From Nanobdellota archaeon (GTDB lineage Archaea > Nanobdellota > Nanobdellia > Woesearchaeales > GW2011-AR9): a stretch of 38,757 nt of DNA. The notes beneath the pieces are model-generated. The model had not been told where the DNA came from, did no database searches, and saw only the letters and a program-made list of their open reading frames with translations. The stretch covers positions 1 to 38,757 of the forward strand of contig JBBSZV010000003.1 in NCBI GenBank assembly GCA_038044525.1, in the 5' to 3' direction. Made by a program: the position numbers and the translations under genes. Of the stretch, positions 100 through 33,302 are shown in pieces. Each line of letters starts with the position of its first letter. Within the stretch, counting starts at the first letter, position 1.

Positions 100-250
100 G
101 GCCCCATAGCTCAGCCTGGTTTAGAGCGCTGGTCTTATACGACCATTAATGGCTCATTTCAACCAAAACCATTAATTCCGCTTGGAAAGCCAGAGGTCCT
201 GGGTTCAAAGGCAGACAATAATACTGCTGCTGAAAGTCCCGGTGGGGCCA
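100..250 (+). tRNA. tRNA-Ile(UAU) with two introns (140-187 at 37/38; 210-236 at 59/60)
   Basis: Acceptor GGCCCCA/TGGGGCC+A, D arm GCTC/GAGC, anticodon stem CTGGT/GCCAG, loop CT-TAT-A^A, T stem CTGGG/CCCGG. The T-loop intron forms a strict BHB (GGG-TTCA-AAG-GCAG...CTGC-TGAA-AGT-CCC). Confidence 0.9.
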
Positions 251-27768: not shown

Positions 27769-28131
27769 ATGATTTCAGAAAACTGGCGGTGGGGGCGTTC
27801 TGCCTCTGTTGATTTGCACGGCTGCGACCCCCTGCTGGTCAAGGATCCGGCAGCCATCGAGCGCTTCGTGCGCGCTTTGATAAAGGAATTGAAGATGAAA
27901 CGCGTCGGCCCGGCGATAATCAAGCGTTTCGGTCACAAAAAACTGCGCGGCTATTCCCTGATGCAGTTCATCGAGACCAGCACCATCACGGCTCACTTCG
28001 ATGAGCAGGGAAGTAGGGCGTTTATAGACATTTTCAGCTGCAAGACTTACGACACTAAGAAAGTAGCGCAGTTCTGCAAGAAATTCTTCAAGGCTAAGGA
28101 TTACGTGCTGTATGTGGAAGAGAGGAGATAG
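27769..28131 (+). CDS. speD: Pyruvoyl-dependent decarboxylase proenzyme, SpeD/AdoMetDC family (paralogue 1, IET-S type)
   Basis: DLHGCD, GYSLMQFIET|STITAH, FIDIFSCK. Confidence 0.85.
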   Translation: MISENWRWGRSASVDLHGCDPLLVKDPAAIERFVRALIKELKMKRVGPAIIKRFGHKKLRGYSLMQFIETSTITAHFDEQGSRAFIDIFSCKTYDTKKVAQFCKKFFKAKDYVLYVEERR

Positions 28132-28133
28132 CT

Positions 28134-28514
28134 ATGAAAAAGAAAAAAATATTTGGATACGAATTATTGGTTGATTGTTACTACTGTAAAGAAGGAACTT
28201 GCAGTGACTTGGAACATTGCTACAGCTTTTTAGATAAACTGGTAGATTTCATCGATATGGAAAAGCAGGCCCCCCCGCAGATTTTTAGAACCGACAGAAA
28301 AAAATATCCCGATAAAGCAGGTTTAAGCGGCTGGGTGCCGCTGGTAGAATCTTCCATTGTTATCCATACCTTAACAAAAACTGATTTTATCTCTGTCGAT
28401 GTTTACAGTTGCGGCAAGTTCAACCCGAAAAGAGTGGTGCAATTCATCAAAAAATACTTTAACCCAAAAAGAATTGAAACACAGTTAGTGAAACGAGGGA
28501 AGCACTATTATTAA
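28134..28514 (+). CDS. speD: Pyruvoyl-dependent decarboxylase proenzyme, SpeD/AdoMetDC family (paralogue 2, E-S type)
   Basis: G.ELLVDCY.C, GLSGWVPLVE|SSIVIHT, VDVYSCG. Confidence 0.85.
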   Translation: MKKKKIFGYELLVDCYYCKEGTCSDLEHCYSFLDKLVDFIDMEKQAPPQIFRTDRKKYPDKAGLSGWVPLVESSIVIHTLTKTDFISVDVYSCGKFNPKRVVQFIKKYFNPKRIETQLVKRGKHYY

Positions 28515-28566: not shown

Positions 28567-29040
28567 ATGGTATTCCGGGAAGAAGACAAACATTTCTTAT
28601 CTTCATTATACATAGCTGTTGCCATTATCTTGACCTGGAAAGGGCTGTGGACGGGCATTTATGAAGTACCTTTCATTGGCAGCTTGCAATGTAAAATTTT
28701 AGGCCCATATTGTGGATCGTTCGTATTCCTCTTCATAGGTTTTGCCATGCTTATGTTCTCGGGAGCAATTTTCAAAGAATTTGATCCTCTGGGGGGGATC
28801 CAAAAAGCAGTAAATAAAACCTTGCATTCTATTTATACCCACCAGGATAAAAAAAATTTTCAGTTTAAATATTATGATAAATCACAAAAAAAGAATGTTG
28901 CTATTCCGGCTGCTTGGGTAAAAAAAATAGAAAAAGATGCTTTAATAGCTGTGCCCCCGCACCAGAAAAAGGAAATATTCATTCCCGTACACAGAGTAAC
29001 GGAAGTTCTTTACAAAGGAAAGAGTTACTGGAGACTATAA
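28567..29040 (+). CDS. 2-TM membrane protein with C-terminal MJ1316/DUF504 domain (paralogue 1)
   Basis: TM1 with WKGLW, TM2, then F.Y.D...IP...IPVHRVTEV.YKGK..W. Confidence 0.8.
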   Translation: MVFREEDKHFLSSLYIAVAIILTWKGLWTGIYEVPFIGSLQCKILGPYCGSFVFLFIGFAMLMFSGAIFKEFDPLGGIQKAVNKTLHSIYTHQDKKNFQFKYYDKSQKKNVAIPAAWVKKIEKDALIAVPPHQKKEIFIPVHRVTEVLYKGKSYWRL

Positions 29041-29041
29041 T

Positions 29042-29476
29042 ATGATGGCTTGGGAAGATATAAAAAAATATTTTTGGTACCTTTTTGGCATCATAGGGGT
29101 GGTATATTTCTGGGCGGGTGTCTGGGATGGAGTTGGAAACATCGGACCGCTTAAAAATCCGCTTTATAGTTTTATTGCCGGCGTAGTTTTACTCAGTCTC
29201 TCCCGTGTAATCCTTAAAGATGCCAATCCCTTATGGGGCTTAGAAAAACCAGCCAAACTAGAGGCCAAGAAAGTACACCGCCATCCGCAGAAACCAGAGT
29301 TCCATTTCAAGTATAAAGATCACGTCAGCAATAAGGAAATCATGCTGCATGCTAAAAACTTAAAGAAGATTGAAAAAGAATTCTTGGTATTCTTAGACCG
29401 TGGAAAAGAAATTTTCATCCCTTTGCACCGAGTAACCCAAATCACGCATAAAGGAAAGACGCATTGGAAGGCATAA
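29042..29476 (+). CDS. 2-TM membrane protein with C-terminal MJ1316/DUF504 domain (paralogue 2)
   Basis: TM1 with WAGVW, TM2, then HPQKPEFHFKYKD...IPLHRVTQITHKGK..W. Confidence 0.8.
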   Translation: MMAWEDIKKYFWYLFGIIGVVYFWAGVWDGVGNIGPLKNPLYSFIAGVVLLSLSRVILKDANPLWGLEKPAKLEAKKVHRHPQKPEFHFKYKDHVSNKEIMLHAKNLKKIEKEFLVFLDRGKEIFIPLHRVTQITHKGKTHWKA

Positions 29477-29477
29477 G

Positions 29478-29945
29478 ATGCAATACTTAAATAAGGAAGC
29501 GATCACTCCGCTGATGATCGCGTTCCTGCTCATCTCCTTTGCAGTTGCGGTCGGAGTGGTGATCATGAATTTAGGAAGCGCGGAAGTGGAAGAGAAAGCA
29601 GAATGCGCCATCGAGATCGGGCTGCGATTTTCGGAGATAGACGGAAAACAACAGGTATGTTATGATGCCGGTAAGAAAATCTTCGCGTTCACGGTCGAAA
29701 ATGGAGTTAATATCAATGTAGAAGGATTAGTTGTCAATATCATAGGGACAGAAAAAGCTGAAACCTTTGAATTAAATGAAGCGAAAATGGGGAAAGCGGC
29801 AGTGTATCTGGGAAGGGTGCCGTTTGATACCGTCTCTTCCGGAGAAATAAGACAGGTGAAAATATCCCCAAAAATCATCCCTTACGATCAAGAAGAAGTC
29901 TGCATCGAGCAGGCCATTTTAGTAGAAAGCGTTAAAGCCTGCTAA
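29478..29945 (+). CDS. Archaeal type IV pilin/archaellin-like protein
   Basis: Class III signal-like NKEA|ITPL followed by a hydrophobic helix; beta-rich domain with Cys pairs. Confidence 0.7.
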   Translation: MQYLNKEAITPLMIAFLLISFAVAVGVVIMNLGSAEVEEKAECAIEIGLRFSEIDGKQQVCYDAGKKIFAFTVENGVNINVEGLVVNIIGTEKAETFELNEAKMGKAAVYLGRVPFDTVSSGEIRQVKISPKIIPYDQEEVCIEQAILVESVKAC

Positions 29946-29984: not shown

Positions 29985-30773
29985 GTGGAAAAAATGGAAA
30001 TTGAAATTAATCTAACCAAATCAATTGAAGAGAACGCAGGAAAATATTTTGAATCCGCTAAAAAAGCCAGGAGAAAAATGGAAGGGGCTAAAAAGGCTTT
30101 GACGGAGACTAAAAAGAAACTAGAATTGCTGTTGAAACAGGAATCAAAATTTCTGGAAGAAACTGCTGTCAAGCAGGCCAACCGGCAAAAGAAGCGCGAA
30201 TGGTATGAAAAATTCCACTGGTTCTTCTCCTCAGAAGGGTTCTTGTGCGTCGGCGGAAAAGATGCAACCTCTAACGAAGTAATAATCAAGAAACATCTGG
30301 AAAAGAATGACTTGGTTTTGCACACGGATATGGCCGGTTCCCCATTTTTTGTCATCAAGAACGGGCAGGAAGCCGGAGAACAGACCCTCAAAGAAACTGC
30401 GCAGGCGGTGGCTGTATATTCGCGCGCTTGGAAATTATGGCACACTTCTGCGGACGTATTTTATGTCAAGCCAGAACAGGTGACTAAGGAAGCCAGGCCC
30501 GGCGAATACCTGACCAAGGGAAGTTTCATGATTTACGGCAAGACCAATTATCTTCATCCCTCTCTGGAATATGCCATCGGGCTGGCCGACGGAGAGATCA
30601 TCGGCGGACCAAAAACCGCAGTAGAAAAAAACACCAAATCTTTTGTGGTAGTAATCCCGGGAAAAGAGAACAAAGGAAGTTTAGCCAAAAAGATCAAACA
30701 TAAACTTAAGGGGGGAGATTTGGATGATATTATCAAGTTTCTTCCTGCTGGCGGCGGGGAATTGAAAAGATAA
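29985..30773 (+). CDS. NFACT-R domain protein (N-terminally truncated Rqc2/NEMF homologue)
   Basis: ENA..YF..AKK coiled coil, WYEKFHWF.SSEGFL.VGGKDA..NE, H.D..GSP, GEYL.KGSFMIYG. Confidence 0.9.
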   Translation: MEKMEIEINLTKSIEENAGKYFESAKKARRKMEGAKKALTETKKKLELLLKQESKFLEETAVKQANRQKKREWYEKFHWFFSSEGFLCVGGKDATSNEVIIKKHLEKNDLVLHTDMAGSPFFVIKNGQEAGEQTLKETAQAVAVYSRAWKLWHTSADVFYVKPEQVTKEARPGEYLTKGSFMIYGKTNYLHPSLEYAIGLADGEIIGGPKTAVEKNTKSFVVVIPGKENKGSLAKKIKHKLKGGDLDDIIKFLPAGGGELKR

Positions 30774-32807: not shown

Positions 32808-33302
32808 ATGCATCCTTTCTGGGAAAAAACAGAGCATTATAACCGTAAGTTGATCGCTCCAGCGCTAATTTTGCTGTTAGGTATCATCATCTACGAACTG
32901 TTCTTCCACGCTGAAAACTGGATATTAGAACTGGCGGTCGAGATTGCTGATACTTTAGTAATCACCGTGTTTGCCATCGACCTCGTCTTTTTGGCCATAA
33001 GATCCCGGAGCGCAAAATTTTTCTTCAAGAATTATTGGCTGGATGTCCTGGCAGTATTCCCTTTCGCCATCTTCTTTAATTTTATCAACTCGCTTTACCG
33101 GGCGATTGTAGTGACCGAACAGCTGGCAGTAGGACAGGCGCTTCTTCACGAGACGGTAGAAGTCGGCCGGGAAGCTAAAGGCTTATCCAAGGGCGGAAAG
33201 ATTGCCCGCTTCCTGCGGATTGCTGCAAGAATATTAAGAGTAGTGACCAAATCAAGATTATTTGCTAAAGTACACCACCGCAGGACTAAAAAAAGGCGTT
33301 GA
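32808..33302 (+). CDS. Stand-alone voltage-sensor-like (ion transport S1-S4) membrane protein
   Basis: S2 D....F..D, S3 WLDVLAVFPF, S4 ARFLRIAARILR; no pore helices follow. Confidence 0.7.
   Translation: MHPFWEKTEHYNRKLIAPALILLLGIIIYELFFHAENWILELAVEIADTLVITVFAIDLVFLAIRSRSAKFFFKNYWLDVLAVFPFAIFFNFINSLYRAIVVTEQLAVGQALLHETVEVGREAKGLSKGGKIARFLRIAARILRVVTKSRLFAKVHHRRTKKRR

What the first reader, a model, noticed from the sequence alone, without database searches (positions are those of the whole stretch)
28567..29476. Tandem 2TM + MJ1316/DUF504 membrane proteins: candidate membrane sensor or effector for 2',3'-cyclic-phosphate RNA ends
Seen: two adjacent paralogues (1-nt gap), each with two TM helices (W-x-G-x-W in TM1) fused to a C-terminal domain with the F.Y.D...IPxHR[VI]..[IV]..KG...W signature. 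Established: IPxHR marks MJ1316/DUF504, usually a soluble domain predicted to recognise cyclic-phosphate RNA ends in RNA-repair contexts; 2TM + nucleotide-sensor fusions (SAVED-2TM, CARF-TM/Cam1) act as ligand-gated membrane effectors. Inference: the pair may form a heteromeric channel or receptor gated by cleaved RNA or cyclic oligonucleotides. Context is suggestive: an NFACT/Rqc2-like gene lies downstream and every tRNA in the window needs at least two endonuclease cuts per intron that leave cyclic phosphates. I do not recall this architecture being characterised.
Basis: partly seen in the sequence, partly recalled or inferred. Interest (0 to 1): 0.85.

Follow-up and report, generated by a model that had tools for sequence, protein, structure and literature searches.

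The report
Membrane-anchored MJ1316 pair with Fuseless-type hairpin
Two neighbouring genes of a tiny archaeon each join a two-helix membrane hairpin, of the kind that is repeated four times in the animal protein Fuseless, to a small RNA-end-binding type domain inside the cell, which suggests an uncharacterised sensor-bearing membrane complex, possibly a channel.

Summary
ORFs 28567-29040 (157 aa, A) and 29042-29476 (144 aa, B) are paralogues (31% identity, E 1e-26). Each has two hydrophobic helices and a C-terminal MJ1316/DUF504 domain (Pfam 28.4 and 24.1 bits, cut-off 26.3; hhalign against soluble MJ1316 99.1%).

New here: the 2TM part is an evolutionary module of its own. It occurs alone as ~70-aa proteins that match Pfam Fuseless (PF15993). 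In a library-wide search it appears as 1, 2 or 4 repeats. An AlphaFold2 model of a 4-repeat protein (pLDDT 90.9) aligns best with four-domain NaV/CaV/NALCN channels (Z 11.6-6.3; next row 5.0).

Full-length 2TM+MJ1316 was found in 24 of 401 genomes of the order and in none of the sampled genomes outside it. The tandem pair comes from one duplication in the window's own family, and both copies are under purifying selection.

My best reading is subunits of a tetramer-like membrane assembly with cytoplasmic MJ1316 sensor domains. Channel activity and the ligand are inferred, not shown.

No RNA-repair or defence context was found. Recurrent neighbours are a pilin-like gene, decarboxylases of polyamine synthesis, AMP phosphorylase and a voltage-sensor-only protein.

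The parts
28567..29040 (+). Gene A, 157 aa: 2TM hairpin plus MJ1316 domain (the less diverged, A-type paralogue)
   Evidence: ORF. Pfam MJ1316 28.4 bits. 85 homologue clusters. Single-copy orthologues in other families best match A.
28594..28776 (+). A: TM1 (aa 10-32, W24-K-G26-L-W28), outside loop (aa 33-49, with C41/C48 in a lineage-specific insert) and TM2 (aa 50-70). This is a Fuseless-type single repeat.
   Evidence: Hydropathy. AF2 helices 5-31 and 50-71. hhalign against standalone 2TM proteins 98.5%, E 2.2e-15. The loop has a mean of 0.1 K+R.
28786..29037 (+). A: cytoplasmic helix (aa 74-90) plus small beta-barrel (aa 98-156). This is the MJ1316/DUF504 domain.
   Evidence: AF2 pLDDT above 90 in this part. 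hhalign against soluble MJ1316 99.1%, E 1.1e-18 over 76 columns.
29042..29476 (+). Gene B, 144 aa: the paralogue of A, more diverged (B-type)
   Evidence: ORF. Pfam MJ1316 24.1 bits. 77 homologue clusters. The B clade is sister to the A clade within family f1.
29069..29218 (+). B: TM1 (aa 10-32, W24-A-G26-V-W28-D-G), short loop and TM2 (aa 39-59)
   Evidence: Hydropathy. Alignment A3: G16, G19, W24, G26, D29, G30, G32 are invariant.
29228..29473 (+). B: cytoplasmic MJ1316 domain
29478..29945 (+). 155-aa protein with a hydrophobic N-terminus of archaeal pilin (class III signal) type. It starts 2 nt after B and is the conserved downstream partner in family f1.
   Evidence: Adjacent to the pair in the window and in G397, G185, G247 and in L102, L103, L105, L106, L107; next to the single copy in L108. 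No Pfam family. The 'pilin-like' label is my reading of the N-terminal sequence, not a tool result.
27769..28131 (+). AdoMet_dc-like pyruvoyl decarboxylase 1 (context, upstream)
   Evidence: Pfam PF02675, E 2.4e-19. A homologue lies upstream of the pair in L104, L106 and L107 as well.
28134..28514 (+). AdoMet_dc-like pyruvoyl decarboxylase 2 (context, 53 nt upstream of A)
   Evidence: Pfam PF02675, E 1.3e-20; TIGR03330 62.8 bits, below its cut-off of 75.65
29985..30773 (+). C-terminal half of a split RqcH (NFACT-R): context only
   Evidence: NF041120 positions 380-644/645, E 9e-94. The N-terminal half is on another contig, G000:C34.
32808..33302 (+). 164-aa four-helix protein that looks like a voltage-sensor domain alone. 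A lead, not a proven part.
   Evidence: Pfam Ion_trans 11-106/241, 22.2 bits, below the cut-off of 25. Arg/Lys at every third residue in the last helix. Within 3.3 kb of the 2TM-MJ1316 gene in 8 of 24 genomes.

Best explanation
A and B are subunits of a small membrane complex. Each has a two-helix hairpin, with both ends in the cytoplasm and a short loop outside, followed directly by a cytoplasmic MJ1316/DUF504 helix-plus-beta-barrel domain.

The hairpin is one repeat of the Fuseless family, which exists as 1-, 2- and 4-repeat proteins. Four hairpins probably form the working unit. That would be A2B2 in this lineage and a homotetramer where the gene is single. The arrangement would be like the pore module of tetrameric cation channels.

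The four MJ1316 domains hang from the inner helices, as RCK or cyclic-nucleotide-binding domains do in ligand-gated channels. They would couple binding of a cytoplasmic ligand to the state of the membrane part. The ligand, by the family's published prediction, would be an RNA end or nucleotide with a 2',3'-cyclic phosphate.

Shown: the architecture, both homologies, the distribution, the duplication history and the selective constraint. Predicted by models: the topology and the four-hairpin arrangement. Inferred only: ion or solute conduction, the ligand and the gating.
For: Architecture and MJ1316 identity:
- establish the ORFs, the domains and the helices.
- 51 of 52 members match MJ1316.
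- hhalign against 21 soluble MJ1316 proteins of the same order gives 99.1%, E 1.1e-18, over the whole domain.

The hairpin is a module of its own:
- A profile of the family finds standalone 67-97-aa proteins in 17 loci of other genomes of the order (E 1.7e-14 to 8e-6).
- hhalign of the N-terminal part against them gives 98.5%, E 2.2e-15.
- 5 of 5 standalone proteins scanned hit Pfam Fuseless (best E 8e-12), at different quarters of the 298-position profile.
- A profile of the module finds 1542 cluster representatives (E<=1e-3). Among the best 150 there are 1, 2 or 4 matched stretches per protein.
- 5 of 5 scanned 4-stretch proteins cover the whole Fuseless profile, and 3 of 3 scanned 2-stretch proteins cover half of it.
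- The consensus of 45 four-repeat proteins carries W-R-G-x-W four times.

Arrangement:
- The AF2 model of a 4-repeat protein has pLDDT 90.9 and pTM 0.89.
- Against 48,161 solved chains, its 8 best rows are all NaV, NALCN or CaV channels (Z 11.6, 9.8, 9.4, 8.1, 7.7, 7.5, 6.4, 6.3; 226-254 of 284 residues aligned). The next row has Z 5.0.

The membrane part is more than an anchor:
- TM columns are as conserved as the barrel (A-type 0.75/0.80 against 0.65; B-type 0.84/0.67 against 0.74).
- W24, G26, G30, G58 and L62 are invariant.

Topology: mean K+R is 0.1 in the loop, about 2 in the N-terminus and about 14 in the C-terminal domain.

The pair:
- One duplication at the base of family f1. The A and B clades are sisters (SH-aLRT 87) and both mirror the same genome order.
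- The pair is adjacent in 4 of 8 f1 genomes. In the larger sample, 24 of 43 f1 genomes (G000 included) have a match, 22 of them as two adjacent full-length copies; one more pair is cut by a contig end and one genome shows a single copy.
- Both copies are under purifying selection.
- A+B complex prediction: weak support. ipSAE 0.41 against 0.00 for the best of 3 controls. The runs agree in at least 36% of contacts, and partner pLDDT is at least 65. By the tool's calibration the mark was reached by 58 of 80 solved complexes and 2 of 110 mismatches. At 0.60 or under it was reached by only 7 of those 80 and by both mismatches that passed.

Lead: a voltage-sensor-only protein lies within 3.3 kb in 8 of 24 genomes, in three families. 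It is present (E<=1e-28) in 16 of 24 genomes with the gene against 42 of 377 without.
Against: - No member of A1 hits the Fuseless model directly (0 of 52). The link is transitive, through profiles of mostly hydrophobic sequence.
- The TM1-TM2 loop is short (about 6-17 residues) and has no re-entrant P-loop or selectivity-filter motif, so a canonical cation pore cannot be claimed.
- Z 11.6 is below the tool's own caution line of about 13 for helical bundles. Foldseek found nothing for the same model (best E 0.56, TM below 0.3).
- I could not inspect coordinates, and I could not model a tetramer of A and B.
- The A+B score is weak, and paralogues of one fold may score by likeness.
- The MJ1316 ligand is a published prediction, not a measurement. 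I saw only one passage (PMC6514570).
- The membrane forms have replaced the N-x-I-x-W-D motif of the soluble forms. They have K, or in B-type a variable residue, where the soluble forms have the R of Y-x-D-R. Ligand specificity may therefore differ or be lost.
- No RNA-repair neighbour was found.
- The fold search of the C-terminal domain gives only generic small-barrel matches (SspB, Hfq, WYL; Z<=7.2).
- Related genomes are not independent, so the voltage-sensor association may be inherited gene order.
Confidence: 0.4

Rival explanations
1. Membrane tether. The hairpin only holds an RNA-end-binding MJ1316 domain at the inner face of the membrane, for example to hold or sort cleaved RNAs or an RNA-processing partner there. 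Nothing crosses the membrane.
For: The MJ1316 domain is intact over its whole length and cytoplasmic by the positive-inside count. Among the 24 genomes with the full-length form, 5 also have a soluble copy (G077, G093, G183, G245, G283), so the membrane form is an added, specialised paralogue. No pore motif is visible in the loop.
Against: A simple anchor would not keep invariant W, G and L positions or be as conserved as the soluble domain. It would not exist as a standalone 70-aa protein family or as 2x and 4x repeat proteins. No RNA-processing gene is among the 10 operon-like neighbours scanned.
Confidence: 0.27
2. Partner of the pilin-like surface protein. A and B form a membrane platform for assembly, anchoring or signalling of the co-transcribed 155-aa protein with a pilin-type N-terminus. 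The MJ1316 domain serves as a cytoplasmic interaction or regulatory domain and not as an RNA sensor.
For: The 155-aa gene follows the pair with a gap of 2-3 nt or an overlap in all f1 loci where the downstream side is visible (window, L032, L033, L035; L102, L103, L105, L106, L107, L108; gaps). A related gene lies beside the single-copy gene in L076.
Against: Outside family f1, most loci with the single-copy gene have no such neighbour (cluster c2 in 5 of 24 loci). So the link does not define the family as a whole. The 155-aa protein has no family match.
Confidence: 0.15
3. Defence effector. A ligand-activated membrane-disrupting protein of an abortive-infection system, as for SAVED-2TM or CARF-TM (Cam1), triggered by RNA cleavage products.
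For: Only the general design supports this: a small TM part plus a nucleotide or RNA-end sensor domain.
Against: There was no PADLOC match for A, B or 8 neighbours. The neighbours are housekeeping genes. Inheritance within family f1 is vertical, with the A and B trees mirroring each other. Strong purifying selection and a stable position do not look like a mobile defence island.
Confidence: 0.05

Closest known systems
Soluble MJ1316 / DUF504 / UPF0248 proteins (Pfam PF04457), about 75-100 aa, in archaea
   Same: The C-terminal 80 residues are homologous over the full domain (hhalign 99.1%). They keep Y-x-D, E-x-F/I-P-x-H-R and the terminal W.
   Different: Here the domain is fused behind a 2TM hairpin. 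The N-x-I-x-W-D motif of the soluble forms is replaced, and the R of Y-x-D-R is K or variable. The Pfam match starts only at profile position 15-19.
Fuseless family (Pfam PF15993), 8-TM proteins named after Drosophila fusl (the name and biology are recalled; the 2008 paper was not held)
   Same: The same hairpin unit with W-[RKA]-G-x-W in helix 1 and a small-residue motif in helix 2. Standalone relatives hit the Pfam model, and the module profile retrieves full Fuseless proteins.
   Different: One repeat instead of four, and a C-terminal MJ1316 domain that none of the four-repeat or two-repeat proteins among the best 150 showed. A and B themselves do not reach the Pfam model.
Ligand-gated tetrameric channels with a sensor domain after the inner helix (MthK with RCK, MloK1/CNG with CNBD). 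This is established knowledge, used as an analogy of mechanism only.
   Same: The design: two helices per subunit, probably four subunits, and a cytoplasmic ligand-binding domain directly after the second helix. The Fuseless model aligns best with NaV/CaV/NALCN.
   Different: There is no P-loop or selectivity filter, no sequence homology, and no evidence of conduction.
SAVED-2TM and CARF-TM (Cam1) defence effectors
   Same: A small TM part plus a cytoplasmic nucleotide-type sensor.
   Different: There is no homology, no defence context and no PADLOC match, and inheritance is vertical.

Membership tests
MJ1316 / DUF504 (PF04457) | Match to the Pfam model at or above the gathering score of 26.3 bits | tested here: met
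   A scores 28.4 bits. B scores 24.1 bits, just below the cut-off. In the genome search they score 29.5 and 25.0 bits. 51 of 52 family members match at E<=0.1, best E 1.7e-9.
MJ1316 / DUF504 (PF04457) | Homology over the whole domain to bona fide soluble members, with the conserved I-P-x-H-R core | tested here: met
   hhalign 99.1%, E 1.1e-18, over 76 columns. P140 and R143 are invariant and H142 is at least 90% conserved.
MJ1316 / DUF504 (PF04457) | Binding of RNA ends with a 2',3'-cyclic phosphate (the function predicted for the family) | not testable with these tools
   I saw only the statement in a passage of PMC6514570. The primary papers were not held.
Fuseless (PF15993) | Match to the Pfam model | tested here: not met
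   0 of 52 members of A1 match at E<=0.1. The link is indirect: standalone relatives match (best E 8e-12), and these relatives match the N-terminal module of A and B.
Fuseless (PF15993) | The repeat unit: a two-helix hairpin with W-R-G-x-W at the end of helix 1 | tested here: met
   W24 and G26 are invariant and W28 is at least 90% conserved. The same motif occurs four times in the consensus of 45 four-repeat proteins. The module profile retrieves Fuseless proteins at E down to 3e-30.
Fuseless (PF15993) | Four repeats (8 TM) in one chain | tested here: not met
   A and B have one repeat each. No longer fused form was found (which is weak evidence).
Tetrameric cation channels (pore module) | Re-entrant P-loop with a selectivity filter between the two helices | tested here: not met
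   The loop has 6-17 residues with no such motif, and low model confidence there.
Tetrameric cation channels (pore module) | Four hairpins around a common axis | tested here: inconclusive
   Only the 4-repeat relative was modelled. Its best structural matches are NaV/NALCN/CaV (Z 11.6-6.3, next 5.0). Foldseek found nothing, and no tetramer of A and B could be modelled.
Anti-phage defence effectors (PADLOC models) | Match of the protein or its neighbours to a defence-system model | tested here: not met
   0 of 10 proteins matched at E<=0.01.

The most novel reading that the evidence does not exclude
A and B form a heterotetrameric Fuseless-type channel. Its four cytoplasmic MJ1316 domains open or close it on binding RNA ends or nucleotides that carry a 2',3'-cyclic phosphate. 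It may work together with the separately encoded voltage-sensor-only protein found nearby in three families. That would be a channel gated by a product of RNA cleavage. It would also be the prokaryotic single-repeat ancestor form of the animal protein Fuseless, and it would give Fuseless a molecular function as a pore.
Probability: 0.12. Interest if true: 0.9.

Novelty: new variant of a known kind. Interest (0 to 1): 0.62.

Why it matters
- The MJ1316 domain has no measured function and, as far as my searches show, no solved structure of its own. A membrane-bound form with a conserved partner module gives a concrete assay for its ligand: flux or binding in liposomes.
- Fuseless has been a protein of unknown molecular function. 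Single-, double- and four-repeat forms of its hairpin exist. The four-repeat model resembles the pore module of four-domain channels. Together these give a testable hypothesis for what Fuseless is, and a small archaeal protein with which to test it.
- For DPANN archaea, with their very small genomes, a conserved membrane complex next to polyamine and nucleotide-salvage genes may bear on exchange with the host or environment.
- The full-text searches found no paper that describes this architecture or a prokaryotic Fuseless relative. The library lacks most subscription journals, supplements were closed, and Burroughs and Aravind 2016 could not be read. That paper may list a TM fusion of MJ1316.

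Tried and rejected
- PDB sequence search with A found nothing relevant (best E 0.16, beta-lactamase).
- Foldseek with the model of A found no match at E<=1e-3. The best rows were Hfq, WYL and SH3-like barrels. The VIA wide search gave only middling Z (7.2 for 2nys_B, 7.0 and 6.9 for SspB, 5.4-6.1 for WYL and Hfq). I read this as a generic small barrel and draw no function from it.
- Foldseek with the Fuseless model found nothing.
- The ESM Atlas gave no usable hit for the N-terminal part.
- The search for longer, fused forms of A found none (the tool itself calls this weak evidence).
- A weak Fuseless hit in the window's own genome (G000:C22:9073-9207, 17.3 bits) lies inside a 396-aa ORF on the other strand, so I rejected it. 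No standalone hairpin gene was found in this genome, which is 69% complete.
- An RNA-repair context was looked for and not found. A defence context was looked for and not found.
- Outside the order, the 12 'same class' genomes with a match have only soluble-type matches at profile positions from about 61-83 to the end. The full-length architecture was therefore not found outside the order in the genomes sampled.
- The literature searches led to one relevant passage only.
- The voltage-sensor association is reported as a lead only, because related genomes are not independent.
- Rows left out: I dropped duplicate sequences and L011 (an unpublished genome) from the soluble set, leaving 21. In alignment A4 I left out L091, L094, L095 and L053 (unpublished genomes). 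In one search I kept only proteins of at least 125 aa (159 sequences: 157 of the 162 database proteins plus A and B).
Full report
**Observation**

The window carries two ORFs exactly as described: A at 28567-29040 (157 aa) and B at 29042-29476 (144 aa), on the + strand and one base apart.
- They are paralogues over their whole length (31% identity, E 1e-26).
- Each has two hydrophobic segments. In A these are about 10-32 and 44-70, in B about 10-32 and 39-59. The second segment is clearly of transmembrane strength; the first is marginal by hydropathy but is modelled as a long helix.
- Pfam finds MJ1316 (PF04457) in the C-terminal half of both. A scores 28.4 bits, above the 26.3 cut-off. B scores 24.1 bits, just below it.
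- The genome (554,810 bases, 40 contigs, 69% complete) has no other MJ1316 match.
- Database names of close homologues say Candidatus Woesearchaeota or Nanoarchaeota, 'DUF504 domain-containing protein' or 'UPF0248 family'.

**The family**

A-type and B-type proteins each have about 80 clusters at 90% identity in public data (85 and 77). Many of these sit on contigs of the same length.

In a mixed alignment of 52 sequences, the invariant positions are W24, G26, G30, G58 and L62 in the membrane part. In the C-terminal domain they are Y102, E136, F138, P140 and R143.

The membrane helices are at least as conserved as the barrel. The loop between them has almost no Lys or Arg (mean 0.1), while the N-terminus and the C-terminal domain are rich in them. 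Both ends should therefore be cytoplasmic, with the short loop outside.

**The C-terminal domain**

A profile-profile comparison with 21 soluble MJ1316 proteins of the same order gives 99.1% probability and E 1.1e-18 over 76 columns. This includes the N-terminal helix that the Pfam match misses.

Two differences from the soluble forms stand out.
- The soluble forms carry N-x-I-x-W-D. The membrane forms have an H-P-x-K stretch there.
- The soluble forms have Y-x-D-R. The A-type has Y-x-D-K, and in the B-type that position varies.

AlphaFold2 (52-row alignment, mean pLDDT 82, above 90 in this part) gives a helix followed by a small beta-barrel. Structure searches return only generic small barrels (SspB, Hfq, WYL domains, designed SH3-like barrels), with Foldseek E>=0.04 and VIA Z<=7.2. 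I draw no function from these matches.

The predicted function of MJ1316, recognition of RNA ends with a 2',3'-cyclic phosphate, is known to me only from Pfam's name for the model and from one passage in PMC6514570. The primary papers were not held.

**The membrane part is a module of its own**

This is the main new point.
- A genome search with the family profile found many short ORFs that match only profile positions about 4-64.
- I fetched 17 such loci. They encode proteins of 67-97 aa that consist of the hairpin alone, with F-W-R-G-x-W in helix 1.
- hhalign of the N-terminal part of the A/B family against these proteins gives 98.5%, E 2.2e-15.
- Five of five scanned hit Pfam Fuseless (PF15993; best E 8e-12), at profile positions 11-63, 175-223, 167-221, 242-279 and 8-58 of 298. 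The Fuseless model is therefore itself built of repeats of this hairpin.
- A profile of the module (26 sequences) searched against 1.84 billion cluster representatives found 1542 proteins at E<=1e-3 and 386 at E<=1e-10. Among the best 150 there are proteins of 57-162 aa with one matched stretch, of 173-294 aa with two, and of 284-678 aa with four (three in 2 of them).
- I scanned ten of these with Pfam. The five 4-stretch proteins cover the whole Fuseless profile (E 1e-50 to 5e-90). The three 2-stretch proteins cover half of it.
- Ten of the best 150 carry an MJ1316-like C-terminus, and all ten have one repeat.
- The consensus of 45 four-repeat proteins shows W-R-G-x-W four times.
- A and B themselves do not reach the Pfam Fuseless model (0 of 52), so the link rests on the profiles.

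**How the hairpins may pack**

An AlphaFold2 model of a 284-aa four-repeat protein is confident (pLDDT 90.9, pTM 0.89). Foldseek finds no counterpart in the PDB.

The exhaustive VIA search over 48,161 chains ranks eight four-domain cation channels first:
- NaV1.7: Z 11.6, 250 residues aligned, rmsd 4.1
- NaV1.5: Z 9.8
- NALCN: Z 9.4
- Five CaV entries: Z 8.1 to 6.3

After these there is a drop to Z 5.0 for unrelated transporters. The aligned ranges span all four channel domains. I read this as four hairpins arranged like the pore module of such channels.

The tool warns that Z below about 13 can be a common arrangement for helical bundles, and I could not inspect coordinates. The loop between the helices is also too short for a P-loop. 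What is supported is a four-hairpin working unit. A cation pore is not shown.

**Distribution and history**

In an even sample of 401 genomes of the order, 24 carry a full-length 2TM+MJ1316 gene.
- Twenty have one copy.
- Four have an adjacent pair, and all four belong to the window's family f1 (G000, G397, G185, G247).
- Among the 24 with the full-length gene, five also hold a soluble MJ1316.

In a second sample with 43 f1 genomes, 24 have the gene. Of these, 22 have two adjacent full-length copies, one has a pair cut by a contig end and one has a single copy. In that sample the 12 matching genomes outside the order have only soluble-type matches.

A maximum-likelihood tree of 28 full-length proteins puts the f1 A clade (support 98) and the f1 B clade (100) as sisters (87). 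The same branching of genomes appears in both, which indicates one tandem duplication at the base of the family. The B stem is somewhat longer (0.58 against 0.39). Single-copy proteins of other families best match A.

Against the same-genus orthologues, pN/pS is 0.127/0.711 for A and 0.173/0.836 for B. Both copies are therefore maintained.

The complex prediction for A+B gave weak support. The score was 0.41 against 0.00 for the best of 3 controls, with at least 36% contact agreement and partner pLDDT of at least 65. The tool's calibration says that such low passes are more often wrong than right unless the guess was likely beforehand. No fused A-B protein was found.

**Context**

In family f1 the pair is followed, with 2-3 nt or an overlap, by a 155-aa protein that has a pilin-type hydrophobic N-terminus and no family match. 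An AdoMet_dc-like gene lies upstream in the window, L104, L106 and L107.

Elsewhere the single gene has other tightly coupled neighbours.
- It overlaps by a few bases the end of an AMP/thymidine-phosphorylase-type gene in four loci.
- It overlaps by a few bases the start of a pyruvoyl arginine decarboxylase in three loci.
- Other neighbours include an amino-acid permease fused to a methyltransferase, enolase, an oxidoreductase and a GNAT.

None of the 10 scanned neighbours is an RNA-repair gene. Nothing matches defence models.

The window has one detectable tRNA, with a 49-nt insert in the anticodon loop and a 28-nt insert in the T loop.

A protein that looks like a voltage-sensor domain alone (window 32808-33302) lies within 3.3 kb of the gene in 8 of 24 genomes, from three families. 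It is present in 16 of 24 genomes with the gene, against 42 of 377 without. Related genomes are not independent, so this is a lead only.

**Reading**

The most likely explanation (0.4) is a tetramer-like membrane assembly of Fuseless-type hairpins. It would be A2B2 in this family. Its cytoplasmic MJ1316 domains act as ligand-binding regulators, by analogy with sensor domains that follow the inner helix of ligand-gated channels.

| Reading | Confidence | Main weakness |
|---|---|---|
| Tetramer-like assembly with MJ1316 sensors | 0.40 | conduction, ligand and gating are only inferred |
| Plain membrane tether for an RNA-end binder | 0.27 | does not explain the conserved, independently evolving hairpin |
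| Platform for the pilin-like partner | 0.15 | that partner is restricted to part of the family |
| Defence effector | 0.05 | has no support from context |

**Novelty**

Both domains are known as families, and the proteins are in databases as DUF504 proteins. The following were not found in print in my searches:
- the architecture itself
- the identity of its membrane module
- the 1x, 2x and 4x repeat series of that module
- the channel-like model of the four-repeat form

The limits of those searches are stated above. I rate the finding a new variant of a known kind, with interest 0.62.

Noticed in passing
window 32808-33302 (+); also L063, L079-L084: A 164-183-aa protein with four helices that matches only the S1-S4 part of Pfam Ion_trans and has Arg/Lys at every third residue of its last helix. 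It looks like a voltage-sensor domain without a pore. Strong matches occur in 58 of 401 genomes of the order.
   Followed up: partly
P0182 and other 4-repeat proteins (not in the window): The AlphaFold2 model of a four-repeat Fuseless-family protein aligns best with the four-domain NaV/NALCN/CaV channels (Z 11.6-6.3, next 5.0). This suggests that Fuseless itself is a pseudo-tetrameric pore-like protein. The organisms of these proteins could not be looked up.
   Followed up: partly
window 29985-30773 (+) and G000:C34:23447-24487 (-): The ribosome-rescue protein RqcH is split. The window holds the C-terminal half (NF041120 positions 380-644/645). The NFACT_N half (positions 3-376/456) lies on another contig.
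   Followed up: partly
window 100-250 (+): The only tRNA of the window has two inserts, 49 nt in the anticodon loop and 28 nt in the T loop. ARAGORN does not call it.
   Followed up: partly
window 27769-28131 and 28134-28514 (+): There are two tandem AdoMet_dc-like pyruvoyl enzymes. In other lineages the 2TM-MJ1316 gene is instead coupled to a non-homologous pyruvoyl arginine decarboxylase (L082-L084). The recurrence of polyamine decarboxylases of two unrelated kinds next to the gene may be meaningful.
   Followed up: partly
L075, L079, L080, L081: An AMP/thymidine-phosphorylase-type gene (about 500 aa) overlaps the start of the single-copy 2TM-MJ1316 gene by a few bases in four loci of two families.
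   Followed up: no
L085, L086 (G272, G143): A 90-aa variant of the standalone hairpin protein has an extra N-terminal hydrophobic helix, giving three predicted helices.
   Followed up: no
window 28687-28710 (A, aa 41-48): Gene A of the window has an insert of about 11 residues with two cysteines in the outside loop. Most A-type proteins lack it.
   Followed up: no
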